Assembly: GCF_036500425.1 (NCBI RefSeq)
Contig: NZ_DASYCB010000077.1
Coordinates: 26,411-90,410 of the forward strand
Length of the DNA stretch: 64,000 bases
DNA from: Luteibacter sp.
GTDB taxonomy: Bacteria > Pseudomonadota > Gammaproteobacteria > Xanthomonadales > Rhodanobacteraceae
Direction: 5' to 3'
A model generated the notes under the pieces. The model saw only the letters and a program-made list of their open reading frames with translations. It searched no databases and was not told the DNA's origin. Shown here piece after piece: positions 14,195 to 56,130 of the stretch (position 1 is its first letter; every line of letters starts with the position of its first letter). The translations under genes and the position numbers were made by a program.

Positions 14195-16828
14195 ATGAAA
14201 ACCGCCCAAATTCGTTCGACCTTCCTGGAATACTTCCGCGCCAAGGACCACACCATCGTGCCCTCGGCATCGCTGGTGCCGTCGAACGACCCGACGTTGC
14301 TCTTCACCAACTCGGGCATGGTTCCCTTCAAGAACGTATTCCTCGGCAGCGAAAAGCCGGGTTATGTGCGCGCCGCCGATGTGCAGCGCTGCCTGCGCGC
14401 GGGCGGCAAGCACAACGACCTGGACCAGGTGGGCTACACCGCGCGCCACCACACCTTCTTCGAAATGCTCGGCAACTGGTCGTTCGGCGACTACTTCAAG
14501 CGCGATGCCATCCGTTACGCGTGGGAGCTGCTGACCGAGGTCTACAAGCTGCCGGCCGAGCGCCTGTGGGTCACCGTCTATCACACCGATGACGAAGCCT
14601 ACGATCTGTGGAACAAGGACATGGGCGTGCCCGCCGAGCGCATCGTGCGTATCGGTGACAACAAGGGTGCGCCATACGCGTCGGACAACTTCTGGCAGAT
14701 GGCCGATACCGGCCCCTGTGGTCCCTGCACGGAAATCTTCTACGACCACGGCGCCGATGTCGCCGGTGGCCCGCCGGGCTCCCCGGATGAGGATGGCGAC
14801 CGCTACATCGAGATCTGGAATCTCGTGTTCATGCAGTTCGACCGGGCGCCCGATGGCACGCTGAGCCCGCTGCCGGCGCCGTGTGTCGATACCGGCATGG
14901 GTCTGGAGCGTCTGGCGGCCGTGCTGCAGCATGTGCATTCCAACTACGAAATCGACCTGTTCGCGCACCTGATCCGCGAGGCTTCGCGCCTCACGAATAC
15001 ACCGGATATCGGCAACAAGTCGCTGCGCGTCATCGCCGATCACATTCGTGCGGCCTCGTTCCTCATCGTCGATGGCGTGCTGCCTTCGAACGAAGGCCGC
15101 GGCTACGTGCTCCGCCGCATCATCCGCCGCGCCCTGCGCCATGGCTGGATGCTCGGCGTACGTGGCGACTTCTTCTGGAAAATGGTTTCGCCGCTGGTCG
15201 CCGAAATGGGTGAAGCCTACCCGGATATCGCTTCGAAGCAGGCCTTCGTGGAGCAGGCGCTAAAGGTGGAAGAAGAGCGCTTCGGTGAAACGCTCGAGCA
15301 CGGCATGCGCCTGTTCGACGATATCGCCGCCAAGGCCGGCAAGATCATCCCGGGCGCGGATGCGTTCCGCCTGTACGACACCTATGGCTTCCCGGTCGAC
15401 CTCACGGCCGACATCGCCCGCGAGCGCGACATGACCGTCGACATGGAGGGCTTCGAGCGCTCCATGGGTGAGCAGCGTGCCCGTGCGCGCGCCGCCAGCA
15501 ACTTCTCGAGCAAGGCGCAGCTGCCGGCTGACGTGGCCAGCGCCTTGCAGCCGACGATCTTCACGGGCTACGACGCCCTCGACCTGGCCGATGCCAAGGT
15601 CGTCGCGATCGTCCGTGACGGCAAGGCCGTGGAGCAGCTGGCGGATGGCGAGGAGGGCTTCCTCCTGCTCGATCGCACGCCGTTCTACGCGGAGTCGGGC
15701 GGTCAGGTCGGCGATACCGGCATGATCCGCAACCCGTCGGGCGCGCTTGCGGTCCAAGACACCCAGAAGGTGGGTGGCGCGTTCTTCGCCCATTTCGGCA
15801 CCTGGCAGGGCTCTGCGCCACTGCTGAAGGGCGTCATGGTGGGTGCGGCGGTCGATGGCGCCCAGCGCCAGGCCACGGTCCTGAACCATTCCGCCACCCA
15901 TCTGCTCCACGCCGCCCTGCGCACCGTCCTGGGTGAGCACGTGTCGCAGAAGGGTTCGCTGGTGGCGCCGGAGCGCCTGCGTTTCGACTTCTCGCACTTC
16001 AAGCCGGTCACCGCCGAAGAGCTCGCCGAGATCGAGCGCATGGTCAATGACGAGGTGCGCCGCAACGCGGCCGCCGAGATCCACAACATGGGTTACGACG
16101 AGGCGATCGAGTTCGGGGCCATGGCTCTGTTCGGTGAGAAATACGGCGCTGAAGTCCGTGTGCTGAAGATGGGCGATTTTTCCACCGAACTCTGCGGCGG
16201 TACCCATGTAGGTCGCACCGGCGATATCGGCCTGTTCAAGATCGTCTCCGAATCCGGCGTCGCCGCCGGCGTCCGCCGTATCGAAGCGGTGACCGGCGCG
16301 GGTGCCATGGCACGCATCGCCGACGAAGAGCGCATCCTGGGCGAAGTCTCGGGCCTGCTCGCGGCCAACGGCGACGAGGTCGTCGACAAGCTACGCCAAC
16401 TGTTCGATAAGCAGAAGAAACTCGAAAAAGAGATCGAATCCTTCAAGGCCAAGGCGGCCCATTCGGCGTCTGCTGATCTTGCCGAGTCCGCTACGGACGT
16501 CGCGGGCATCAAGGTCGTCGCGGCGCGCCTGGAGGGCCTGGATGCCAAGTCGCTGCGCGATAGCCTGGATGCGCTTAAGCAAAAACTGGGCGACTGCGCG
16601 GTGATCCTGGCCGGTGCAGCCGATGGTCGTGTTTCGCTGGTCGCGGGCGTGGGCGGCAGCGCCCTTGGTCGTGTCAAGGCCGGCGATCTCGTCGCTGAGG
16701 TCGCTTCGAAGATCGACGGCAAGGGCGGCGGTCGTCCGGACATGGCGCAGGGCGGTGGTGTCGATAGCCCCGCGCTGCCCGGCATCCTGGCGGGTATTCC
16801 TGCCTGGGTGGAAGTCAAACTTCGCTGA
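14195..16828 (+). CDS. alaS: Alanine--tRNA ligase
   Basis: 877 aa. Class II AlaRS N-terminus ([30 protein letters not shown]), editing domain [12 protein letters not shown]-terminal DHHA1-like domain. Confidence 0.98.
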
Positions 16829-17134: not shown

Positions 17135-17338
17135 ATGCTGATTCTGACCCGCCGGGTCGGTGAAACCCTGATGATCGGCGACGAGGTGACCGTCACTGTT
17201 CTGGGTGTGAAAGGTAACCAGGTGCGTATCGGTATCAACGCACCGAAGAATGTCGCGGTCCACCGCGAAGAGATTTACCAGCGCATCAAGAACGAGAACG
17301 ATCCCGCCGGCCATTCGGGCGACGACCACGACCAGTAA
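17135..17338 (+). CDS. csrA: Carbon storage regulator CsrA/RsmA
   Basis: 67 aa. [38 protein letters not shown]; GGAG RBS upstream. Confidence 0.97.
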
Positions 17339-17413: not shown

Positions 17414-17506
17414 GGAGAGTTGCCCGAGAGGCCGAAGGGGCTCCCCTGCTAAGGGAGTATAGGGTCAAAAGCCTTATCGAGGGTTCGAATCCCTCACTCT
17501 CCGCCA
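17414..17506 (+). tRNA. tRNA-Ser (anticodon GCU)
   Basis: GGAGAGTTGCCCGAGAGG... Anticodon stem-loop CTCCC-CTGCTAA-GGGAG, long variable arm, T-arm GGTTCGAATCC, encoded CCA end. Folded by eye. Confidence 0.9.
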
Positions 17507-17575: not shown

Positions 17576-18508
17576 TCAAAGGGAAACCGCGTCTTTCAGT
17601 GCGCGGCAGATCGATGCCGCAAGTTCTTCCTGTTCGCGAATACCGAACTGCACCGAGCGGTCGAAATGTCGGGCCCAGGTAATGCGGCTGAGCGAGGCAT
17701 CGATGAGTCGGATCGAAGTTCGCATGCGTTCGGCATCGACCCTCAGGCTGCCTTCGATCAACCGGTGACGCGCCGTGCGGTCTTCATCGGCATCTCCCGC
17801 TGCGTTGCCTGACCAGGCCGCTGGCGGCGCGGCCCGCGTGAAGACATCACCGAACGAGGAAAAGAGCTGGTTAAGTAATTCTTCGTAAAGGCCGCTTGCG
17901 AAAGCCTGCCCTTCCTCGCGTTCGGTGATGTAGCGGATGGGCTGTACCAACAGGTACGTGCCTTGCGGGTGAGTACGCTCGTGTCGCACCACGCGGCGAA
18001 AGCTGGGTGTATAGCGTCCGACCGGTATGGTGATCTCGACATCCCCGGTGGTTGCGTGGTCGGTGTAGTAAGCGGCCAGCCGATGACGCAGGCGGCCCAC
18101 CTGGACGCGCACAGACGGATCTTCGGACAGGTAGTCCGCCGGGTTGCGTCCAAACACTTCGATGCCGATGGCGTACTCGCTGATGGCCTTCTCGCCCGCC
18201 AGCACCTGCCGGGTCAGGAAATCGAAGAGCCGCCTCATGCGATGTGCCTTCTGAAAGGCATCACTCGCCATGATCGAGGCACACGCTGTTCGGATCTCCC
18301 CCTCGTCGATCTCCCTGGTCTCGTCGATTTCCGTCTTCACCACGTCCCCCCTGCGAATCCGATCCTGTGCGGATGCCGTTTCCATGCTCGCGCTGTTGGC
18401 TCCGGTCCGGCTTCCGACGATAACCGCGGTGCGATCGCGCACAGCGGTTGTTACGGTAACAGCGGAGAAATCGTTACCGTAACGATACTTATGCCCGCCT
18501 GCCGGCAA
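17576..18508 (-). CDS. Putative regulatory protein divergent from the reb-like operon (function unverified)
   Basis: 310 aa from a TTG start (GGAG 9 nt upstream); ATG 18385 is an alternative start. Central block SDAFQKAHRMRRLFDFLTRQVLAGEKAISEYAIGIEVFGRNPADYLSEDPSVRVQVGRLRHRLAAYY resembles a module I know from the N-termini of proteobacterial signalling/regulatory proteins. Confidence 0.55.
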   Translation of the reverse strand: MPAGGHKYRYGNDFSAVTVTTAVRDRTAVIVGSRTGANSASMETASAQDRIRRGDVVKTEIDETREIDEGEIRTACASIMASDAFQKAHRMRRLFDFLTRQVLAGEKAISEYAIGIEVFGRNPADYLSEDPSVRVQVGRLRHRLAAYYTDHATTGDVEITIPVGRYTPSFRRVVRHERTHPQGTYLLVQPIRYITEREEGQAFASGLYEELLNQLFSSFGDVFTRAAPPAAWSGNAAGDADEDRTARHRLIEGSLRVDAERMRTSIRLIDASLSRITWARHFDRSVQFGIREQEELAASICRALKDAVSL

Positions 18509-18574
18509 ACCTAGGATCTCCCCATCGACGCGATGCGCCTTGCGCTCGTGCTCGCCACATCACTGGGGATACCA

Positions 18575-18907
18575 ATGGCCGGCCAACTTCCTGACGACAT
18601 CGTCCAGGCGATCGCAATTTCCAACGCCAAGTCCATCGGCGAACAGCCGGCCATCCTGGCGAATCTGGCGCTCGCGCAGCAGATCTTCAACCAGAACATG
18701 CAGCAGCAGATCAGCCTGAGCCAGCAGCAGGCGATGAACCAGGTGCAGATGGCAGCCGCGGCCAAGTGCGTCGCGATGATCGAAACCGCGGGTGGCTGCA
18801 AGAACCAGACGTCCATCGACCAGATGGGCAAAGACCTCGAAAAGATCGCCGGCGAGATGGAGCGGCTCTTCAAGGACGGCGGGAAAAAAACATCCAGCGA
18901 TACATAA
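18575..18907 (+). CDS. RebB-like (R-body / killing-trait family) protein, paralogue 1
   Basis: Trimmed to ATG 18575. DDIVQAIAISNAKSIGEQPAILANLALAQQIFNQNMQQQISLSQQQAMNQ matches the conserved core shared with the next three ORFs and the RebB family as I remember it. Confidence 0.75.
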   Translation: MAGQLPDDIVQAIAISNAKSIGEQPAILANLALAQQIFNQNMQQQISLSQQQAMNQVQMAAAAKCVAMIETAGGCKNQTSIDQMGKDLEKIAGEMERLFKDGGKKTSSDT

Positions 18908-19013
18908 CGAATTCATGCGCATTCATCGCGGATGAGTGCGCTGGATGCCCTCGACAGGGGCCCATGCAGGTAAGTCGTTTCCATCAACCACGCAATTCAC
19001 AAGGAGAATCATC

Positions 19014-19331
19014 ATGGCCGCACTTCCCGATGACGTCGTTTCCGCCGTCGCGATTGGCAACCTCAAGTCCATCTCCGAACAGCCGGCGATGCTTTCCAAC
19101 CTGGCCTATTCGAACACGGTAGCCAGTACCAACCTCTCGCAGCAGAACGCGGTGGCCAACCAGCAGGCGATGAACGAGCTGGGCCTGTCCATCGTCGCAA
19201 AGGCATCGAACACCATCAGCAACCTCGGCCCACTCGAGGCGCGTTCGGCCGTCGATATCCTGACCAACAACGAGTTGGCCCAGACCATCGCCGACATGAA
19301 GGCCACGCTGCAGGCTTTCGCCAGCAAGTAA
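19014..19331 (+). CDS. RebB-like protein, paralogue 2
   Basis: ATG 19014 with AAGGAG at 19001. DDVVSAVAIGNLKSISEQPAMLSNLAYSNTVASTNLSQQNAVANQQAMNE ... ARSAVDILTNNELAQTIADMKATLQAF. Confidence 0.8.
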   Translation: MAALPDDVVSAVAIGNLKSISEQPAMLSNLAYSNTVASTNLSQQNAVANQQAMNELGLSIVAKASNTISNLGPLEARSAVDILTNNELAQTIADMKATLQAFASK

Positions 19332-19366
19332 CCCGGCAGGCCGGGCGTTAATTCGGAGCGCAGAAC

Positions 19367-19867
19367 ATGCTTGACGAACAGATTGTCAACGCCGTGGCGA
19401 CGGGCAACCTCAAGACGATAAGCGAGCAGCCCGCCCTGATATCCAACCTTGCTTTCGCGAACGTGGTGTCGAGCAGCAACCTCGGCCAGCAAAACGCGGT
19501 ATCGAACCAGCAGGCGGGTAACGAAATCACCGTTCCGCTGGTAGCCAAGGCCGTGAGCACCGTGAGCGACCCTGGCCCGATGGAGGCTCGTTCTGCGGTG
19601 GATGTGCTCACCAACGACGAGCTGGCGCAGTCCATCGCCGACCTGAAGTCGGTCGTGGAGGCGTTCGCGACGGGTGGCGGTGGTCACCGTCATCGGCGGC
19701 TGCGGGATCTCGAGTTGAGCATCGACGAGGCCGGCCGTCTGGTCATCGTCGTGCTCAACGGTGATATGCCGGAGATCTTCGTGCCGGGACGCTTCACCAG
19801 GGAATCGGTGGACGTCAGCGTCGATACGAGCCGTGGCGCGACCATCCGGATCAGGAAGAGCCGGTAA
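19367..19867 (+). CDS. RebB-like protein, paralogue 3, with ~60-aa C-terminal extension
   Basis: EQIVNAVATGNLKTISEQPALISNLAFANVVSSSNLGQQNAVSNQQAGNE ... ARSAVDVLTNDELAQSIADLKSVVEAF, then GGGGHRHRRLRDLELSIDEAGRLVIVVLNGDMPEIFVPGRF... Confidence 0.8.
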   Translation: MLDEQIVNAVATGNLKTISEQPALISNLAFANVVSSSNLGQQNAVSNQQAGNEITVPLVAKAVSTVSDPGPMEARSAVDVLTNDELAQSIADLKSVVEAFATGGGGHRHRRLRDLELSIDEAGRLVIVVLNGDMPEIFVPGRFTRESVDVSVDTSRGATIRIRKSR

Positions 19868-19933
19868 CCGTAACGCGACGATAGGAGCGGGGCGGCGGAG
19901 GTGCCGCCCCGCATTTCCGGGGGAGTAAGTGAC

Positions 19934-20290
19934 ATGGAAACGATCGAAGTCGTCGAGATCAACATCCACGAGAGCGGGCCTTCCGGCGATGCCATCACCG
20001 CCGCGCTGGCGATCAACTCAGTAGCGACGGCCCAGCAGGCCTCGGCCCTGACCAACCTTGCCTATGGCAACCAGGTGAACAGTACCGCGGTGGGCGCGCA
20101 GGCGCAGGTCGCCCATCAGGACGCGCTGAACCGGTTGCGCCACGTGATCCTGGCCCGTGCGGTCTCCAGTGTTCAGGTACCCGCGCCGCTTGCGGCCCGG
20201 TCCGATGTTTTCGTCTTCAGCTCCAACGAGCTCGCGCAAGACATAGCCGACCTCAAGGCGGCGGTCGAAGCGTTCGTGCCCACACCTTGA
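19934..20290 (+). CDS. RebB-like protein, paralogue 4 (more divergent)
   Basis: ATG 19934 with GGAG upstream. AITAALAINSVATAQQASALTNLAYGNQVNSTAVGAQAQVAHQDALN ... ARSDVFVFSSNELAQDIADLKAAVEAF. Confidence 0.7.
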   Translation: METIEVVEINIHESGPSGDAITAALAINSVATAQQASALTNLAYGNQVNSTAVGAQAQVAHQDALNRLRHVILARAVSSVQVPAPLAARSDVFVFSSNELAQDIADLKAAVEAFVPTP

Positions 20291-20303
20291 ACCGGAGTCG
20301 CGC

Positions 20304-20612
20304 ATGGATGACTTCAACAGCATGCTCATCGAACAGATCAACGACCAGTTAAAGCGAGGCTTCGATGCGAACCTGCGCGCAGGGGATTTCTGCGTGGTGG
20401 AGACGCGGGTGAATGGCGTGTTGTCGGTGTTGCCATCGGCCGCGGTCAGTGACCAGCACAAGACGGTGTTTGGGCCGGGATCATTTGCTTCGTGTATCGC
20501 CTACGTCAATGGCCATCTGGTGACGAGGCCGCTCAGTGCAGGCGATATCCAGACGCTGCACGTGGCGGCACGGGCTGGCGATGCCGACATCATGGAAGGA
20601 GACCACCCGTGA
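20304..20612 (+). CDS. Hypothetical protein, reb-operon accessory
   Basis: 102 aa. GGAG upstream. 13-nt gap from the previous gene, and its stop overlaps the next start (GTGA). No recognisable motif. Confidence 0.55.
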   Translation: MDDFNSMLIEQINDQLKRGFDANLRAGDFCVVETRVNGVLSVLPSAAVSDQHKTVFGPGSFASCIAYVNGHLVTRPLSAGDIQTLHVAARAGDADIMEGDHP

Positions 20613-20809
20613 GCCAGGAAACCATTGCGCAGTTGGGCAAGGTGGTGGAGGACATCGCCGAATCGATGACGAAAGTGGCGACTAACATCGCCTTGCTCGG
20701 CGTGGAAGGCAATGCCGATGAGCAGATGCGCATCATCACCGAAGAAAACAACAAGGTCCTTGATCGGATCCGCGTGCTTTATAACCTGCCGCCGGCGCCG
20801 GGCCGCTGA
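20609..20809 (+). CDS. Small hypothetical helical protein, reb-operon accessory
   Basis: GTG 20609 with GGAGA 6-7 nt upstream. 66 aa, heptad-like (VSQETIAQLGKVVEDIAESMTKVATNIALLG...). Confidence 0.45.
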   Translation: MSQETIAQLGKVVEDIAESMTKVATNIALLGVEGNADEQMRIITEENNKVLDRIRVLYNLPPAPGR

Positions 20810-20810
20810 G

Positions 20811-21041
20811 ATGGCCGCGAGTGGCTCCATCGTCGATACGCCGCTGGCTGCCGCGACCGCCCTGAACGCCGTGGCGATTCCTGAGGCGGAGGCGGGCTAC
20901 ACCTTTATGGTGGAGATCCTCGGCAACCAGACGACACCGCTCATCTTCGGCTCGCTGGCACTCAGCGCCGTGGCGATCGTGGGCGGCCTGACAGCCTACG
21001 AAACGACGGTCGCCGCGGCGGCCGCCACGAAGGCAGGGTAA
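20811..21041 (+). CDS. Small hypothetical protein with C-terminal TM helix, reb-operon accessory
   Basis: ATG 20811, 1 nt after the preceding stop. 76 aa. TPLIFGSLALSAVAIVGGLTAY hydrophobic helix. Confidence 0.45.
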   Translation: MAASGSIVDTPLAAATALNAVAIPEAEAGYTFMVEILGNQTTPLIFGSLALSAVAIVGGLTAYETTVAAAAATKAG

Positions 21042-21742
21042 TGGCTGTGGCGCGTGACAGGCATGCGACACGTCCGTTGCCGGAACAGGTGGTGATCGTG
21101 GCCTTTCCGGGTGCCTATGCGCAGCAAGGTGTGCCGGTTTCCGCGCCATCGCCGCCCAGCGATTTCTTCATCGTGCGCGCCGATGCAAGCGAAGTGTCGC
21201 TGCCCGGCCATACCGCCGATTGGCTCACCGTGTCGCCGCCTACAGCGATCGTGCAGGGGGTGTGCCGTATCGCCTACCGCGCCACCGACAACACGCGCGT
21301 GGCGCGACACGTCGAGGTCCCCGTGGTGGTGAAAGGCGCGCGCTATGCGGTGATGTTCCGTCAACAGGCCGGTGAACTGGTCCAGTTTGAACTCGTACGA
21401 ACATTGAACAGCCCGCTCAACATCGATTGCCTCGTCGCGATCGGCTTCATTGCCAGCCTGATCCAGAAGATTCCGGTGCCGCCCATCAAGCTCATCGTGA
21501 TGGTGCTGGTGGTTCTTGCGCTTATCGCCCTGGGCTTTGCCGTATCGGCTATCCGGCATGGTTTCGTGGGTGTTCCCGAGCCGAAGCCGTTATCCACGGA
21601 CACCAACGGCACACCGATTGTCGTTATTCCCGGCATTGCGATTCCCGGACTGCTGCCGTTGGCCGGTATCGCCGCCGAGGACCAGACCATCGCGCTACAG
21701 ACCATCCAGGAAATCTACTGGCTGATCGAGGAAGTGGGCTAG
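21041..21742 (+). CDS. Hypothetical membrane protein, reb-operon accessory
   Basis: 233 aa. Start overlaps the previous stop (TAATG). Soluble N-terminal half, then two TM helices (CLVAIGFIASLI, LIVMVLVVLALIALGFAVSAI). Confidence 0.6.
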   Translation: MAVARDRHATRPLPEQVVIVAFPGAYAQQGVPVSAPSPPSDFFIVRADASEVSLPGHTADWLTVSPPTAIVQGVCRIAYRATDNTRVARHVEVPVVVKGARYAVMFRQQAGELVQFELVRTLNSPLNIDCLVAIGFIASLIQKIPVPPIKLIVMVLVVLALIALGFAVSAIRHGFVGVPEPKPLSTDTNGTPIVVIPGIAIPGLLPLAGIAAEDQTIALQTIQEIYWLIEEVG

Positions 21743-21842
21743 CGGCCGCTTGTCGGCCAACTCGGATGGACCCGGCGGAGCCGAAGCCCACCTCCGCGCG
21801 ACATGGGCCTTCCCCATTCCACCCATGACGGAGCATGCAGAC

Positions 21843-22907
21843 ATGTCCCAGTACACATCGCTATTGCCTTTCAGCTACATGGTGCCCACGTTCTATCCCA
21901 CCTCACCTGGCAACGTTCAGCCGATGAACGGCGCGCCGCAGGTCGTCCTTTCCGATCCTGACCTGCAGGCGCGTGCCCAGCGTCTGGCCAACGTGCTTTT
22001 CTGGACCGCCCAGACCTACCGAAACCAGGAGGGCATGCAAGACGACAGCACGCTGAAGGTGTTCATCGCGCCCGAGTTTTACTTCCGCAAGGCATCGCCC
22101 TCTGAAGTGAGTGCTTATGGATTCCAGCTCGGCACCAGCTTCGGATCCTATCCCGAGGCATCCAGGCAGGAATTGGCGGCGGCTCTCGACATGGTGGTAC
22201 GCGGGACGCCCCTCTTCAAGGATTGGACCATCGTGGCCGGTAGCATCTGTTCGGCCTTGCCTCGCCAGAATCCAGGCGATCGGCTGAACCTGCTGAACAC
22301 CGCCATCATGTTGCGTGGGTTACGCGACACCCCGGACAACAGTGCCCAGTACGTACTGATGGAGAAACACTACATCTCCAACATTGATGGTCCGTCCGCT
22401 AGCGCGCACGCCAACCAGGATCCGACGACGGTCTATAGCTTCGACCTCAATCCCGAACAGCACTGGGACAACCTCATCTTCTGGGACGGCATGAGCGTCG
22501 GGCTTGAGGTGTGTCTGGATCATTCCGAGCAGGTCGTGTTGAATGCCGTGACCGAGCTGGAGCGGATGATGGGGCCGGCAGCGGGCAAGCTGAGCCTGCA
22601 ACTCGTCACCTCGTGCGGCATGTCCCTCGTCGATGAGGCGGTGGCTGTCGTCGACGGCGCCTTGGTCATGCTCACCGATGGTATGTCGCAAGTCGCGAGC
22701 GGCCTGCGGGAGCCGCGCTTCCAGGTGGGTCGCTTCGATGCCGAAACAGGCGTGGTGACGACGTTCGGCAACAGCGAGTTCGACTTCCAGGAGCTGCCCG
22801 CTAATGCGAGCTACCAGCTCCTGGACTATGCGCGCGGGGAGTATGTGAGCAAAAAACGCCGCCAGGGCGTGTGGGCGTCCAAGTCTCCTCTGCCCCTGTA
22901 CGACTGA
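21843..22907 (+). CDS. Carbon-nitrogen hydrolase (nitrilase superfamily)-like protein
   Basis: Start chosen at ATG 21843 (GGAG 9 nt upstream); ATG 21825 is also possible. Candidate Glu-Lys-Cys triad contexts: VFIAPEFYF (Glu codon 22074), LMEKHYIS (Lys 22365), GLEVCLDH (Cys 22512). Confidence 0.65.
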   Translation: MSQYTSLLPFSYMVPTFYPTSPGNVQPMNGAPQVVLSDPDLQARAQRLANVLFWTAQTYRNQEGMQDDSTLKVFIAPEFYFRKASPSEVSAYGFQLGTSFGSYPEASRQELAAALDMVVRGTPLFKDWTIVAGSICSALPRQNPGDRLNLLNTAIMLRGLRDTPDNSAQYVLMEKHYISNIDGPSASAHANQDPTTVYSFDLNPEQHWDNLIFWDGMSVGLEVCLDHSEQVVLNAVTELERMMGPAAGKLSLQLVTSCGMSLVDEAVAVVDGALVMLTDGMSQVASGLREPRFQVGRFDAETGVVTTFGNSEFDFQELPANASYQLLDYARGEYVSKKRRQGVWASKSPLPLYD

Positions 22908-22969: not shown

Positions 22970-22994
22970 ACACCGGCCAGTGGCCGGTGTTTTC
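22970..22994 (+). terminator. Rho-independent terminator ending the reb-like operon
   Basis: acaccggcc-agt-ggccggtgt followed by tttc; an A-run upstream makes it potentially bidirectional. Confidence 0.8.
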
Positions 22995-23075: not shown

Positions 23076-23187
<112 letters not shown>

Positions 23188-23267: not shown

Positions 23268-24302
23268 ATGGCGTCGATCTCGAAAACCGATGAAGGTACC
23301 TACCGCGTACGGGTGCGTCGTACTGGGGGCCGCCAGAGCTCCGCTACCTTCCGTACCAAGGCAGAGGCGGCGGCATGGGCGGCGCAAACTGAGAACAATA
23401 TTCACCGCCGCGTGCATCGCGACTTCCGAGTAGCCGAACGCACAACGGTCAAAGAGCTGTTGACGCGCTACGAGGGTGAGGTCGCCGCCATGATGAAGTC
23501 CGCGGCCGTACTGCATTACCACCTAGCGAGATTCATCAAGGATTTCGGTCACCTTCGGCTGTCAGGCCTTACCTCTGAGGAGCTGATCCGCTGGCGTGAT
23601 CGGCGCCTGAAGTCCGTACAGTCGGGCACGGTGCGACGGGAGTTGCAAACCCTCAGCTCCTTCTTTACATGGGTTCGCAAGGATTTATTGATCGCCCTAC
23701 CAGAGAACCCGGTGAGCTCCATTCGATTGCCGCCGGCGAGCAAGGCACGGGACAGGCGACTAGAAGAGGGCGAGGAACAGCGCCTGCTGGAAGCTCTAGC
23801 CGATCACGCAGCGCCGACGAAAGGCGAGAAGCGTGCGGGCAACTACCGCGTGGGTACGCGAAATCCTTGGGTCAAGCCGGCCGTTCAGTTCGCAATTGAA
23901 ACGGCGATGCGACTAGGGGAGTTTTCCCGATTGCTGTGGCAGAACGTTGACCTGAAACAGCAGACCGCCTTCTTGCCCGAAACGAAAAATGGCGACCCGC
24001 GCACGGTGCCGCTGTCGTCTCGCGCCGTTGCGATCTTGGAATCGTTGCCGCGGCAAGACGATGAGCCCAGGGTATTTCCGATCACCAAGAGCGCTCTCCA
24101 GCAGGCGTGGCGTCGCGCTAGGACGCGCGCGAATCTCGGCGACCTACGCCTCCACGACCAGCGGCACGAAGCTACTTCACGGCTCGCGGAAAAACTGCCT
24201 AACCTCATAGAACTGGCGAGCGTTACGGGGCACAAGGATCTGCGGCAGCTCAAACGCTACTATCATCCGCGCGCTGAGGACCTGGCAAAGAAGCTAGGGT
24301 GA
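23268..24302 (+). CDS. int: Tyrosine site-specific integrase
   Basis: 344 aa. Catalytic residue contexts AIETAMRLGEF (Arg), LHDQRHEATS (His-x-x-Arg), VTGHKDLRQLKRYYH (His...Tyr). 80 nt from attL. Confidence 0.9.
   Translation: MASISKTDEGTYRVRVRRTGGRQSSATFRTKAEAAAWAAQTENNIHRRVHRDFRVAERTTVKELLTRYEGEVAAMMKSAAVLHYHLARFIKDFGHLRLSGLTSEELIRWRDRRLKSVQSGTVRRELQTLSSFFTWVRKDLLIALPENPVSSIRLPPASKARDRRLEEGEEQRLLEALADHAAPTKGEKRAGNYRVGTRNPWVKPAVQFAIETAMRLGEFSRLLWQNVDLKQQTAFLPETKNGDPRTVPLSSRAVAILESLPRQDDEPRVFPITKSALQQAWRRARTRANLGDLRLHDQRHEATSRLAEKLPNLIELASVTGHKDLRQLKRYYHPRAEDLAKKLG

Positions 24303-55988: not shown

Positions 55989-56130
<142 letters not shown>

What the first reader, a model, noticed from the sequence alone, without database searches (positions are those of the whole stretch)
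18575..22907. R-body-like (reb) locus: four RebB-family paralogues plus five unassigned accessory genes in one compact operon
Four consecutive small ORFs share a conserved core (..A.A..N.K.I.EQPA..SNLA..N.V...NL.QQNAV.NQQA.NE... ARSAVD.LTN.ELAQ.IAD.K....AF). I recognise it as the RebB / killing-trait family that polymerises into R-bodies, the pH-triggered extendable protein ribbons of Caedibacter; homologues have been reported in free-living proteobacteria, including a functional cluster in Pseudomonas aeruginosa PA14. The operon continues without real gaps (overlaps GTGA at 20609 and TAATG at 21041). It encodes a 102-aa protein, two ~70-aa helical/TM proteins, a 233-aa two-TM protein and a nitrilase-superfamily-like enzyme, none of which corresponds to the known rebC. 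The accessory set may be an undescribed assembly, anchoring or maturation machinery.
Basis: partly seen in the sequence, partly recalled or inferred. Interest (0 to 1): 0.75.

Follow-up and report, generated by a model that had tools for sequence, protein, structure and literature searches.

The report
R-body gene cluster with conserved helpers
This is a chromosomal gene cluster for R-bodies (coiled protein ribbons that some bacteria use as spring-loaded needles). Its type is divergent but already catalogued, and what is new is a set of co-inherited helper genes, an amidase-like enzyme and a regulator with its DNA site, none of which has been studied.

Summary
Window 18575-22907 carries four tandem Reb paralogues and five further genes in one compact + strand unit. 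The Rebs are remote members of the RebB superfamily. They stay below Pfam's threshold, but their profiles hit annotated RebB proteins of Ruegeria, Azospirillum and Caedibacter. Their orthologues include the "R body protein" of Paracidovorax (Acidovorax) avenae ATCC 19860, a species seen to make R-bodies and the source of the "Group 4" seed of Dorr et al. 2026. So the cluster type is catalogued, not new. The added findings are these. Regulator, Reb1-4 and acc5-acc8 keep the same order in 15 other genomes of Gamma- and Betaproteobacteria and in Xanthomonas, and acc5-acc8 recur in a Lentisphaeraceae MAG. None of the accessory proteins resembles RebC or the accessory proteins of sampled Group 1 and Group 2 loci. 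acc9 has a nitrilase-superfamily fold with a conserved Glu-Lys-Cys triad, but it is facultative and belongs to a large family mostly unlinked to reb genes. acc8 is a membrane protein with an Ig-like domain. A paired GTTACSGTAAC site about 100-125 nt upstream of Reb1 occurs only where the divergent regulator occurs. The roles in assembly and maturation are inferred, not shown. Moderate interest.

The parts
17576..18382 (-). Divergently transcribed putative regulator (reg). The ORF is open up to TTG 18508, but the conserved core and the orthologues favour the ATG at 18382 (268 aa).
   Evidence: It is co-conserved next to the cassette in all 15 orthologous loci and in Xanthomonas, at 43-64% identity. 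It has no Pfam, NCBIfam or PDB sequence match. A winged-helix-like motif (VRVQVGRLRxRL) is seen by eye only. dN/dS is 0.07-0.39.
18450..18483 (.). Candidate operator: GTTACGGTAAC (18450-18460) and GTTACCGTAAC (18473-18483), two palindromic 11-mers 23 bp apart, 102-125 nt upstream of the Reb1 ATG.
   Evidence: The motif lies 87-127 nt upstream of Reb1 in all 17 loci that have the regulator, as two copies in 10 of them. It is absent from three cassette-like loci that lack the regulator. Background is 8 hits in 1.1 Mb of unrelated loci. In the window there are 3 matches at up to 1 mismatch against 0.25 expected.
18483..18517 (+). Promoter-like stretch: conserved CGATACTT abutting the proximal operator, then TAGGAT (18512-18517) about 21 nt further on.
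   Evidence: CGATACTT and a TAnnAT hexamer (TAGGAT, TAAGAT or TAGCAT) recur at the same spacing in most of the loci. The generic sigma-70 scan did not call it. This part is inference.
18575..18907 (+). Reb1, 110 aa, Q-rich Reb paralogue. Its N-terminal 65 aa are almost invariant across genomes.
   Evidence: Its HMM hits the Azospirillum, Burkholderia and Caedibacter RebB proteins. Orthologues are misnamed 'FAD-binding monooxygenase'.
18917..18941 (+). G+C-rich hairpin (GCGCATTCATC-GCG-GATGAGTGCGC) in the 106-nt Reb1-Reb2 spacer.
   Evidence: This is the longest spacer of the operon in 14 of the 16 loci compared (99-257 nt). The predicted minimum-energy folds show G+C-rich stem-loops in every locus, but the fold energies are not unusual for the composition in most of them (z between -4.0 and +0.1). 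No Rfam family matches. A role as processing site, stabiliser or attenuator is inferred.
19014..19331 (+). Reb2, 105 aa, the most constrained subunit.
   Evidence: It is 80-96% identical across Gamma- and Betaproteobacteria. dN/dS is 0.015-0.065. Between classes pN is 0.07 and pS 0.50. Pfam RebB gives 21.2 bits, E 3.2e-4. One 90%-identity cluster holds Paracidovorax, Luteibacter, Rhodanobacter, Xanthomonas and Marilutibacter proteins named 'R body protein'.
19367..19867 (+). Reb3, 166 aa: a Reb core plus a conserved C-terminal extension of about 60 aa (motif IPGxFxKEDVxV...G..I.V).
   Evidence: The long form (162-179 aa) is present in every orthologous locus. Pfam RebB gives 15.7 bits. Its HMM scores 28.3 bits on a Ruegeria RebB protein.
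19934..20290 (+). Reb4, 118 aa, the most divergent Reb paralogue, with an N-terminal extension.
   Evidence: hhalign probability is 99.9% against Reb2 and Reb3 and 96.3% against Reb1. Orthologues start at the same Met.
20304..20612 (+). acc5, 102 aa, a soluble protein with a conserved FGPxxFAxCIxYVN motif and a variable Pro-rich tail.
   Evidence: It is conserved at 29-49% identity in all 15 loci and found in Xanthomonas and Lentisphaeraceae by HMM. No family match. It is not RebC-like.
20609..20809 (+). acc6, 66 aa, with no hydrophobic segment and a highly conserved core (ADEQMRIITEENNKVLDRIR).
   Evidence: It is 50-89% identical across loci. No transmembrane segment is predicted. Its start overlaps the acc5 stop (GTGA).
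20811..21041 (+). acc7, 76 aa, Ala/Thr-rich with one predicted transmembrane segment (residues 44-62).
   Evidence: It is 53-77% identical across loci. HMM hits occur in Xanthomonas, Aliikangiella and Lentisphaeraceae.
21041..21742 (+). acc8, 233 aa: an N-terminal Ig-like beta-sandwich, a weak hydrophobic helix, one strong transmembrane helix (151-169), a Pro-rich linker with the invariant VPEPxPLSTD motif, and a C-terminal helix.
   Evidence: AlphaFold2 gives pLDDT 74.8, and above 85 in the beta domain. Foldseek gives only weak Ig, PapD-like and ASH matches (E>=4e-3). The family has only 52 clusters at 45% identity or more, all unannotated. HMM hits occur in Aliikangiella and Lentisphaeraceae.
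21843..22907 (+). acc9, 354 aa, a nitrilase-superfamily-fold enzyme with a candidate catalytic triad E78-K175-C224. The ORF is open from TTG 21750.
   Evidence: AlphaFold2 gives pLDDT 87.6 and pTM 0.90. The top 18 PDB fold hits are all C-N hydrolases or Lnt, with probability 0.99-1.0. The triad is conserved in 75/75, 70/75 and 74/75 aligned family members. No Pfam or PDB sequence hit.
22971..22993 (+). Terminator-like hairpin (CACCGGCC-agt-GGCCGGTG followed by TTTT) 64 nt after the acc9 stop.
   Evidence: Read from the sequence. The consensus scan did not list it because the T run has only 4 bases.

Best explanation
The locus is a 'Group 4' type reb cluster, the Acidovorax/Paracidovorax avenae type, in a Luteibacter-like member of the Rhodanobacteraceae.

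**Shown**
- Four Reb paralogues, four small accessory proteins (acc5-acc8) and a divergent regulator form one co-inherited cassette.
- A nitrilase-fold enzyme (acc9) is usually appended to it.

**Inferred**
- The regulator binds the paired GTTACSGTAAC sites just upstream of the promoter and switches on one transcript running from Reb1 to acc9.
- Hairpins after Reb1 adjust the ratio of Reb1 to the downstream products.
- Reb1 and Reb2 show the strongest constraint and the lowest synonymous divergence between close relatives, so they are probably the bulk subunits of a cytoplasmic R-body ribbon. Reb3 (with its extra C-terminal domain) and Reb4 would be minor or edge subunits.
- acc5 and acc6 (soluble) and acc7 and acc8 (membrane-embedded, acc8 exposing an Ig-like domain) guide or nucleate assembly. 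They would take the place that RebC/RebD hold in Caedibacter and AZC_3784 holds in Azorhizobium, without being homologous to RebC or to the accessory proteins of the Group 1 and 2 loci sampled.
- acc9 is an optional Cys-Glu-Lys amidase or acyltransferase. It may modify the Gln/Asn-rich Reb proteins by deamidation or transamidation, or it may act on another substrate.
For: **Cassette conservation.**
- All ten genes keep the same order in 14 loci. These are Luteibacter anthropi, Rhodanobacter, Dyella, Marilutibacter, [Pseudomonas] boreopolis, a Rhodanobacteraceae MAG, four Paracidovorax/Acidovorax species, Roseateles, Vitreoscilla and a Burkholderiales MAG. In the Marilutibacter locus the regulator lies downstream of acc9.
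- A 15th locus, a Luteibacter MAG, has acc9 moved upstream of the regulator.
- Xanthomonas phaseoli has the regulator, Reb1-4 and acc5-8.
- The Lentisphaeraceae MAG has the Rebs and acc5-8, and Aliikangiella has the Rebs, acc7 and acc8.
- Selection is purifying on every gene.

**Reb homology.**

**Link to real R-bodies.**
- The Reb1 and Reb2 orthologues lie in one cluster with proteins of P. avenae ATCC 19860, ADX48278.1 and ADX48279.1.
- Raymann 2013 reports '4 Rebs ... very divergent' in that strain and cites EM observation of R-bodies in Pseudomonas (Acidovorax) avenae (Wells & Horne 1983).
- Dorr 2026 uses aaRebB of A. avenae as the Group 4 seed.

**Operator.**

**Operon structure.** Overlapping or abutting genes, a terminator-like hairpin after acc9, and no convincing internal terminator.

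**Precedent for essential non-Reb accessory proteins.**
- AZC_3784 is essential for R-body formation (PMC5527310).
- RebC and RebD steer the assembly pathway, and RebC is not detectably incorporated (bioRxiv 10.64898/2026.05.21.725848).

**acc9 fold and triad.**
Against: - No R-body has been seen in this organism, and no genetic experiment links any Group 4 cluster to R-bodies.
- None of the four window Rebs reaches Pfam's gathering score, and only 12 of 64 orthologues hit at E<=0.01.
- The QITD signature is replaced by D(D/E)(V/I)V(S/Q)A(V/I).
- acc9 is absent next to the cassette in Xanthomonas, Aliikangiella and Lentisphaeraceae.
- acc9 is relocated in one Luteibacter MAG. A 64%-identical copy sits in a different context in another Luteibacter MAG.
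- About 1,580 representative clusters belong to the wider acc9 family. The 63 distant loci examined had no Reb genes nearby.
- Methylogaea carries only two Group 4-like Rebs and no accessory genes, so the accessory set may not be needed by every such system.
- The roles of acc5-acc8 rest on co-conservation and predicted topology only.
- The regulator's DNA-binding fold was not confirmed.
Confidence: 0.6

Rival explanations
1. acc9 is not a maturation enzyme for the R-body. It would be a loosely attached passenger or a cargo or toxin-type enzyme. The amidase acts on some other substrate and merely rides at the end of the operon in one subclade.
For: - acc9 is missing from the cassettes of Xanthomonas, Aliikangiella and Lentisphaeraceae.
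- It is relocated in L010 and unlinked in L002, where it sits next to an Endonuclease_NS gene and a type V secretion protein.
- A spacer of 70-133 nt without a conserved motif always separates it from acc8.
- The family has about 1,580 representative clusters. Examples sit beside DUF2589 and GH19 genes or are fused to FYVE or fucose-lectin domains.
Against: - Among close orthologues (55% identity or more), 14 of 16 lie directly downstream of acc8 on the same strand and one more lies beside the regulator.
- Its dN/dS resembles that of the other operon genes.
- No promoter or terminator was found between acc8 and acc9.
Confidence: 0.35
2. acc7 and acc8 are a release or lysis module, holin-like membrane proteins that free the R-body from the producing cell, rather than assembly or anchoring factors.
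For: Both have predicted transmembrane segments and are small. R-bodies act only after release from, or ingestion of, the producer cell, which is established knowledge for Caedibacter. No assembly function has been shown for either protein.
Against: - Neither matches any PHROG, including holin families.
- acc7 has few charged residues and lacks a charged C-terminus.
- acc8 has a 110-residue structured Ig-like domain and an invariant VPEPxPLSTD motif, which is unlike holins.
- Their strict co-conservation with the Rebs suggests a direct partnership.
Confidence: 0.15
3. The four Reb-like proteins do not build a classical R-body. They would form another kind of polymer or inclusion, or act without polymerising.
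For: - None of the four window Rebs passes Pfam's curated cut-off.
- The QITD signature is absent.
- hhalign probability against Caedibacter RebB is only 17-45%.
- No experiment exists for any Group 4 cluster.
Against: - P. avenae ATCC 19860 carries this cassette, and Raymann 2013 counts 4 Rebs in that strain. R-bodies were seen by EM in A. avenae.
- The KxxxE-P, NAV and QQ motifs and the size, composition and tandem paralogy all fit the family.
- The Reb HMMs reach 22-28 bits on annotated Group 2 RebB proteins.
Confidence: 0.1
4. The downstream genes are unrelated neighbours of the reb genes and share no function with them.
For: None of them has a recognisable domain that ties it to Reb proteins.
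Against: - Order, orientation and overlapping stop/start codons are kept in 15 genomes of two proteobacterial classes and in Xanthomonas. acc5-acc8 recur in a Lentisphaeraceae MAG.
- The acc8 family (52 clusters) shares its named source taxa with the cassette, and its genomic context was checked only in the fetched loci.
Confidence: 0.03

Closest known systems
Group 4 reb clusters of Dorr, Ghosh & Schweikert 2026 (seed aaRebB, Acidovorax avenae WP_013596746.1). These are the '4 very divergent Rebs' of A. avenae ATCC 19860 in Raymann et al. 2013.
   Same: The cassette is the same. The Reb2 orthologue of Paracidovorax loci is 92-93% identical to the window's Reb2, and the P. oryzae copy is sequence-identical to ADX48279.1 of P. 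avenae. The Paracidovorax loci have four Rebs, acc5-acc9 and the regulator in the same order.
   Different: Nothing essential differs. This is another member in a different family (Rhodanobacteraceae). The published descriptions cover only the Reb-like genes. In the papers I could read, acc5-acc9, the regulator and the operator are not described.
Caedibacter taeniospiralis rebABCD (type 51 R-body, plasmid pKAP298)
   Same: Both have tandem small Reb paralogues, non-structural helper proteins and compact operons. The N-terminal motifs align colinearly (KxxxE-P, NAV, QQ).
   Different: Homology is only remote (13-17 bits for the best-matching Caedibacter Reb of Reb1-3, and 7 bits or less for RebA and for Reb4). 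No RebC homologue is present. The window has five other accessory genes, a long-form Reb3 and a dedicated divergent regulator, and the locus is chromosomal.
Group 2 reb clusters: Pseudomonas aeruginosa PA14 (rebP1P2, rebD, rapA, rcgA, fecI2) and Azorhizobium caulinodans (rebAZC1-4, AZC_3784, rebR)
   Same: These are experimentally proven R-body loci with non-Reb accessory genes, of which AZC_3784 is essential and RapA is R-body-associated, and with cluster-encoded regulators. The window's Reb HMMs hit Group 2 RebB proteins of Ruegeria and Burkholderia at up to 28 bits.
   Different: The regulators are unrelated in kind: Crp/Fnr plus an ECF sigma factor there, and a single unclassified protein with a GTTACSGTAAC operator here. 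acc5-acc9 have no homologue among the accessory proteins of the Ruegeria and Burkholderia Group 2 loci (hhalign probability below 3%). PA14 and Azorhizobium sequences themselves were not available to test.
Group 1 synteny pattern of Raymann 2013 (HP1.1-HP1.4; Hydrogenophaga, Azospirillum)
   Same: The overall layout is similar: canonical-length Rebs, then a long-form Reb-like protein (about 155-184 aa), then a protein of about 115 aa, then one of about 355 aa.
   Different: The 357-aa HP1.1 of Azospirillum is not homologous to acc9 (hhalign probability 0.2%). The S1-S3 proteins are Reb-like, whereas acc5-acc8 are not. The resemblance is architectural only.
Nitrilase (C-N hydrolase) superfamily: D-carbamoylase, Nit2, beta-ureidopropionase, AmiF, vanin, and the Lnt catalytic domain
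   Same: The predicted fold matches (Foldseek probability 0.99-1.0 for 18 of the top 18 hits). The conserved Glu, Lys and Cys sit at the C-terminal ends of beta-strands, in PE, EKH and GxEVCxDH contexts.
   Different: No sequence-level match to Pfam CN_hydrolase or to any PDB chain. TM-scores are only 0.35-0.50. H227 is conserved in 74 of 75 family members and D279 in 73 of 74. The substrate is unknown.

Membership tests
RebB / R-body protein family (Pfam PF11747) | Score at or above Pfam's gathering threshold (24 bits) for PF11747 | tested here: not met
   Reb2 scores 21.2 bits (E 3.2e-4) and Reb3 15.7 bits, while Reb1 and Reb4 have no hit. Of 64 orthologues, 12 hit at E<=0.01, the best at E 2.7e-4, which is close to the 21.2-bit hit of Reb2.
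RebB / R-body protein family (Pfam PF11747) | Detectable homology to experimentally defined or curated Reb proteins | tested here: met
   - Profiles of Reb1-3 score 13-17 bits on Caedibacter RebB or RebD in colinear N-terminal alignments, and 7 bits or less on RebA. The Reb4 profile scores 6 bits or less on all three.
- hhalign probability is 17-45%.
- The Reb1 HMM hits four Azospirillum RebB proteins at E about 1e-4 to 1e-3.
- The Reb2, Reb3 and Reb4 HMMs score 22-28 bits on Ruegeria RebB proteins.
- Close orthologues are named RebB family or R body protein by NCBI and UniProt.
RebB / R-body protein family (Pfam PF11747) | Signature motifs of Dorr 2026: (D)QITD flanked by prolines; KxxxD/E followed by Pro; NAV and QQ(Q) in domain 3; few charged residues in domains 1-3; charged C-terminal domain | tested here: inconclusive
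   - KxxxE-QP is present in Reb1-3 (K-S-I-S/G-E-Q-P).
- QQNAVxNQQ is present in Reb2 and Reb3, and QQQ in Reb1.
- QITD is replaced by D(D/E)(V/I)V(S/Q)A(V/I).
- Reb4 keeps only parts of these motifs.
- Dorr notes that domain 1 is under-represented in Group 4.
RebB / R-body protein family (Pfam PF11747) | Several small paralogues clustered in tandem | tested here: met
   Four consecutive paralogues of 105-166 aa.
RebB / R-body protein family (Pfam PF11747) | Products polymerise into SDS-insoluble coiled ribbons that extend at low pH | not testable with these tools
   Only indirect evidence exists: the same cassette occurs in P. avenae ATCC 19860, and R-bodies were seen by EM in A. avenae (Wells & Horne 1983, cited).
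Group 4 reb cluster (Dorr et al. 2026) | Reb proteins closest to the seed aaRebB (A. avenae, 103 aa) | tested here: met
   The 103-aa Reb2 orthologue of Paracidovorax is 92-93% identical to the window's Reb2. The P. oryzae copy is sequence-identical to ADX48279.1 / UniProt F0Q8G6_PARA1 of P. avenae. The seed accession itself (WP_013596746.1) was not retrieved, so whether the seed equals Reb1 or Reb2 is inferred from length and species.
Nitrilase / C-N hydrolase superfamily (for acc9) | Four-layer alpha-beta-beta-alpha sandwich fold | tested here: met
   The AlphaFold2 model has pLDDT 87.6 and pTM 0.90. Foldseek PDB ranks 1-18 are all members of the superfamily, with probability 0.99-1.0, E from 8e-7 to 1.4e-3 and TM-scores 0.35-0.50. 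The next hit has E 0.13.
Nitrilase / C-N hydrolase superfamily (for acc9) | Conserved Glu-Lys-Cys catalytic triad | tested here: met
   E78 is kept in 75/75, K175 in 70/75 and C224 in 74/75 aligned members. Each sits right after a predicted beta-strand, in PE, EKH and GLEVCLDH contexts. Two Lysobacter orthologues have Gly in place of the Cys. Spatial proximity in the model was not inspected.
Nitrilase / C-N hydrolase superfamily (for acc9) | Sequence match to Pfam CN_hydrolase (PF00795) or to a solved member | tested here: not met
   There is no Pfam hit at E<=0.1, and none in ten distant family members. The profile search against PDB sequences found no nitrilase.
RebC of Caedibacter (for acc5-acc9) | Sequence similarity to ctRebC (114 aa, WP_011178482.1, reconstructed across the plasmid origin) | tested here: not met
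   hmmsearch gives 4.3 bits or less and hhalign probability is 1% or less for every accessory profile.
Accessory proteins of Group 1 (HP1.1-1.4) and Group 2 (HP2.x, RapA-like) reb loci | Sequence or profile similarity of acc5-acc9 to the non-Reb or secondary proteins of Azospirillum, Ruegeria and Burkholderia reb loci | tested here: not met
   acc9 versus Azospirillum HP1.1 gives probability 0.2%. All acc profiles against 19 proteins of three loci give hhalign probability below 3% and hmmsearch 8.3 bits or less. PA14 RapA and AZC_3784 themselves were not available.

The most novel reading that the evidence does not exclude
acc5-acc8 would be a dedicated, membrane-associated assembly platform specific to Group 4 R-bodies. 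In this reading acc8's cytoplasmic Ig-like domain nucleates or orients the ribbon at the inner membrane. The nitrilase-fold enzyme acc9 would covalently mature the Gln/Asn-rich Reb subunits, either by deamidating Gln or Asn to create the acid-titratable groups of the pH switch, or by forming Gln-Lys isopeptide cross-links through its Cys thioester. That would give a first enzymatic explanation for the extreme SDS and urea resistance, or for the pH trigger, of an R-body.
Probability: 0.15. Interest if true: 0.7.

Novelty: new member of a known kind. Interest (0 to 1): 0.4.

Why it matters
R-bodies are among the largest reversible protein actuators known. They are being explored as pH-driven membrane-breaking devices, yet how they are assembled is poorly understood, and helper proteins have been studied in only three systems. 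This cassette type is widespread in plant-associated Xanthomonas, Acidovorax, Lysobacter, Dyella and Luteibacter. It carries its own invariant set of four helpers and a simple regulator-operator pair, so it is a compact system in culturable bacteria. It offers clear, testable parts: a defined promoter switch, four small genes to delete, and an enzyme with an obvious active-site Cys. If acc9 does modify Reb proteins, that would bear on the long-standing question of why R-bodies resist denaturants without disulfides. If not, acc9 still marks a family of about 1,580 representative clusters with a nitrilase-like fold that has no Pfam model.

Tried and rejected
- **Family libraries.** Pfam, NCBIfam, PHROGs and PADLOC scans of all ten proteins returned only the sub-threshold RebB hits for Reb2 and Reb3 and chance-level matches.
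- **Solved structures by sequence.** Profiles of the Rebs, acc9 and the regulator found nothing relevant. The regulator's winged-helix reading therefore stays a by-eye impression.
- **acc9 as Raymann's HP1.1.** The sizes are alike (354 versus 357 aa), but hhalign gives probability 0.2%, so this was rejected.
- **acc6 or acc7 as degenerate Rebs (Raymann's HP1.4 or Dorr's S1).** Profile comparison gives probability 2.3% or less, so this was rejected.
- **The accessory genes as RebC.** Rejected.
- **Reb3's C-terminal extension as a partial alpha-crystallin domain.** hhalign places it on the LPGxxKEDI motif, but the probability is only 1.5%, which is not significant.
- **Reb genes beside distant acc9 homologues.** None were found with Group 4 HMMs or with Caedibacter Rebs.
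- **A conserved element in the acc8-acc9 spacer.** None was found.
- **Rfam.** Only the tRNA matched.
- **Plasmid search with Reb2.** tblastn found no match, so Group 4 Rebs were not detected on PLSDB plasmids. Canonical RebB found 19 plasmids.
- **A third near-operator site at 19864-19874.** It is not conserved in other loci, so it was treated as chance.
- **The reb operon as part of the adjacent integrase island.** Rejected, because the island's tRNA-Pro repeat lies downstream of the operon.
- **Literature on this cassette type.** No functional study was found.

Full report
**1. What is there**

Between alaS (14195-16828), csrA (17135-17338) and tRNA-Ser(gct) (17414-17506) on one side and an integrase island on the other, the + strand carries nine closely packed ORFs.

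| Gene | Coordinates | Length |
|---|---|---|
| Reb1 | 18575-18907 | 110 aa |
| Reb2 | 19014-19331 | 105 aa |
| Reb3 | 19367-19867 | 166 aa |
| Reb4 | 19934-20290 | 118 aa |
| acc5 | 20304-20612 | 102 aa |
| acc6 | 20609-20809 | 66 aa |
| acc7 | 20811-21041 | 76 aa |
| acc8 | 21041-21742 | 233 aa |
| acc9 | ORF from 21750, probable start 21843, to 22907 | 354 aa |

- The GTGA and TAATG overlaps are in the sequence as stated.
- The spacers are 106, 35, 66, 13, -4, 1, -1 and 100 nt.
- A hairpin followed by TTTT lies 64 nt after acc9.
- A 268-310 aa ORF (17576-18382/18508) is transcribed divergently.

**2. The four small proteins are paralogues and remote RebB relatives**

- They align over a common core.
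- Profiles built from 16 orthologues each match one another at hhalign probability 96-100%.
- Pfam RebB is not reached: 21.2 and 15.7 bits for Reb2 and Reb3 against a cut-off of 24, and nothing for Reb1 or Reb4. Only 12 of 64 orthologues hit at E<=0.01, the best at E 2.7e-4.

Homology is nevertheless supported by several lines:

- A profile search returned 977 proteins. Many are named 'RebB family R body protein' or 'R body protein', from Luteibacter, Dyella, Lysobacter/Marilutibacter and Methylogaea.
- HMMs of Reb1-3 score 13-17 bits on Caedibacter RebB or RebD, in colinear alignments that start at the N-terminus.
- The alignment to ctRebB superposes K-x-x-x-E-x-P and the NAV/QQ block.
- The Reb1 HMM hits four annotated Azospirillum RebB proteins.
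- The Reb2, Reb3 and Reb4 HMMs reach 22-28 bits on Ruegeria RebB proteins.

The QITD signature is replaced. Dorr et al. 2026 note this weakness of domain 1 for their Group 4.

**3. The cluster type is already catalogued**

- Raymann et al. [quoted passage not shown] They recall that R-bodies were seen in Pseudomonas (Acidovorax) avenae.
- Dorr et al. 2026 take aaRebB of A. avenae (103 aa) as the seed of their primary Group 4.
- The Reb2 orthologue of Paracidovorax loci is 92-93% identical to the window's Reb2. The P. oryzae copy is sequence-identical to ADX48279.1 / UniProt F0Q8G6_PARA1 ('R body protein, putative', P. avenae). The Reb1 orthologues share a cluster with ADX48278.1 of strain ATCC 19860.
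- The window therefore holds a Group 4 reb cluster in what is most likely a Luteibacter-like bacterium. The closest named relatives are Luteibacter aegosomatissinici and L. anthropi.

**4. The accessory genes belong to the cassette**

A scan of one genome per species with an acc9 profile returned 79 loci.

- In 15 of the 16 loci with close acc9 orthologues, tblastn and ORF reconstruction find every one of the ten genes.
- 14 loci share the window's order. In the Marilutibacter locus the regulator lies downstream of acc9.
- One Luteibacter MAG has acc9 moved upstream of the regulator.
- The hosts are Rhodanobacteraceae, Lysobacteraceae/Xanthomonadaceae, Comamonadaceae and other Burkholderiales.

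| Protein | Identity to the window across loci |
|---|---|
| Reb2 | 80-96% |
| Reb1 | 63-91% |
| acc6 | 50-89% |
| acc7 | 53-77% |
| acc8 | 46-65% |
| acc9 | 55-65% |
| acc5 | 29-49% |

- dN/dS is 0.015-0.44 for all ten genes.
- Between classes, synonymous differences are similar for all genes (pS 0.45-0.61), while Reb2 has pN 0.07. Its conservation therefore reflects constraint rather than separate recent transfer.
- Xanthomonas phaseoli has the regulator, Reb1-4 and acc5-8 but no acc9.
- A Lentisphaeraceae MAG has Rebs and acc5-8. Aliikangiella has Rebs, acc7 and acc8. Methylogaea has only two Rebs.
- The core is therefore Reb1-4 plus acc5-8, the regulator is clade-specific, and acc9 is facultative.

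**5. The accessory genes are not those of other R-body systems**

- No acc profile resembles ctRebC.
- acc9 is not the 357-aa HP1.1 of the Group 1 pattern in Azospirillum.
- No acc profile matches any of 19 proteins of Azospirillum (Group 1), Ruegeria and Burkholderia (Group 2) reb loci.
- I found no description of these genes in the papers available.
- Dorr et al. state that they ignored non-homologous co-localised proteins.

**6. What the accessory proteins look like**

*acc9*
- It folds with confidence (pLDDT 87.6, pTM 0.90).
- Its 18 best PDB matches are all nitrilase-superfamily enzymes or the Lnt catalytic domain. After them the scores collapse.
- E78, K175 and C224 each follow a beta-strand and are kept in 75/75, 70/75 and 74/75 of the family members aligned at those positions (79 sequences in all). 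A second Cys (C258) is not kept.
- No sequence method sees the relationship.
- The wider family has 1,581 representative clusters at E<=1e-3.
- The 63 distant loci examined have no Reb or acc5-8 genes. Some sit with DUF2589 and GH19 genes. Some proteins are fused to FYVE or fucose-lectin domains.

*acc8*
- It has an N-terminal Ig-like sandwich with weak PapD-like, ASH and titin matches.
- It has one strong transmembrane helix, a disordered Pro-rich linker with an invariant VPEPxPLSTD motif, and a C-terminal helix.

*acc5, acc6 and acc7*
- acc7 has one transmembrane segment.
- acc5 and acc6 show no hydrophobic segment and are probably soluble.

**7. Regulation**

- Upstream of Reb1 every locus that has the regulator carries GTTACSGTAAC 87-127 nt before the Reb1 start. 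It is usually present twice, 21-23 bp apart, followed by CGATACTT and a TAnnAT hexamer.
- The three cassette-like loci without the regulator lack the motif, and the background rate is 8 hits per 1.1 Mb.
- In the window the two perfect copies are at 18450-18460 and 18473-18483.
- That the regulator binds these sites is an inference from co-occurrence.
- The Reb1-Reb2 spacer is the longest of the operon in 14 of the 16 loci compared. The predicted folds contain G+C-rich hairpins in every locus, although the fold energies are not unusual for the composition in most.
- Reb1 and Reb2 have lower synonymous divergence than the other genes between close relatives. This fits high expression of the leading genes, but that too is inference.

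**8. Interpretation**

- *Shown:* a conserved ten-gene unit; remote RebB homology; a nitrilase-like fold and triad; a regulator-linked operator motif.
- *From literature:* the same cassette is in an organism reported to form R-bodies. Non-Reb helpers can be essential (AZC_3784) or can steer assembly without being incorporated (RebC).
- *Inferred:* Reb1 and Reb2 are the bulk subunits. acc5-8 are assembly or anchoring helpers. acc9 is an optional modifier or an unrelated passenger.
- The main rivals are that acc9 is a passenger or cargo enzyme and that acc7 and acc8 serve release rather than assembly.

**9. Verdict**

The locus is a further member of a catalogued, experimentally unstudied R-body cluster type. 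The useful new points are the strict co-inheritance and distinctness of acc5-acc8, the fold assignment of acc9 together with its facultative status, and the regulator-operator pair. Interest is moderate (0.4).

Noticed in passing
window 23141-56130: An integrative island of about 33 kb starts right after the reb operon. An intact tRNA-Pro(cgg) lies at 56054-56130 (- strand). An exact 26-nt copy of its 3' end lies at 23145-23170, with 0 expected by chance. An integrase-like ORF (23268-24302) sits next to that fragment, identified by eye only. The reb operon lies outside the island, between tRNA-Ser and the ancestral tRNA-Pro site.
   Followed up: partly
Reb1 orthologues, e.g. L006:6097-6408, P0116, P0418-P0423: Public records name Reb1 orthologues 'FAD-binding monooxygenase' (Paracidovorax avenae, P. 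cattleyae, Acidovorax sacchari, Luteibacter aegosomatissinici). They are 103-110 aa Reb paralogues, so this looks like a propagated misannotation.
   Followed up: partly
acc9 family: L017-L079; P0266-P0403: The acc9 family has about 1,580 representative clusters, a nitrilase-like fold and no Pfam model. It occurs in Actinomycetota, Myxococcota, Bacteroidota, Acidobacteriota and others without reb genes. In Oxalobacteraceae it sits near DUF2589 paralogues and a GH19 lysozyme-like gene. Some members are fused to FYVE zinc fingers or a fucose-specific lectin propeller.
   Followed up: partly
L002:4448-5509: A Luteibacter MAG encodes an acc9 copy 64% identical to the window's. No reb gene lies within 4.4 kb upstream or 10 kb downstream. 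It sits between a chemoreceptor gene and an Endonuclease_NS ORF, and a 2188-aa ESPR-bearing type V secretion protein lies nearby.
   Followed up: partly
window 19670-19867 (Reb3 C-terminal extension): The conserved motif (I/V)PGxFx(K/R)E(D/E)(V/I)xV...G..(I/L)x(V/I) recalls the LPGxxKEDI strand pair of small heat-shock proteins. hhalign aligns it to that motif of M. jannaschii Hsp16.5 but without significance (probability 1.5%).
   Followed up: yes
window 18575-19331 compared with 19367-22907: Reb1 and Reb2 have clearly lower synonymous divergence than the rest of the operon between close relatives (dS 0.27-0.28 against 0.35-0.93 for L001 versus L005). They also have among the highest GC3 values (0.85). 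This is compatible with high expression or with constraint at the RNA level.
   Followed up: no
window 19864-19874: A third, one-mismatch copy of the operator motif (GTAACCGTAAC) overlaps the Reb3 stop codon. It is not conserved in any other locus, so it is probably chance.
   Followed up: yes
P0175, P0180 (Lysobacter acc9 orthologues): Two Lysobacter acc9 orthologues have Gly in place of the candidate nucleophile Cys (LGLDH instead of VCLDH) but keep Glu and Lys. They may be inactive variants. Their genomic context was not examined.
   Followed up: no
L084 (Aliikangiella marina) and L085 (Lentisphaeraceae MAG): Cassette-like loci without the regulator have other neighbours. In Aliikangiella a sigma-54 activator gene lies about 2.4 kb upstream of the first Reb gene and a Ser/Thr kinase-TPR protein lies downstream. 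In Lentisphaeraceae there are extra small genes and an LCAT/alpha-beta-hydrolase gene. This suggests the regulatory and peripheral parts are exchangeable.
   Followed up: no
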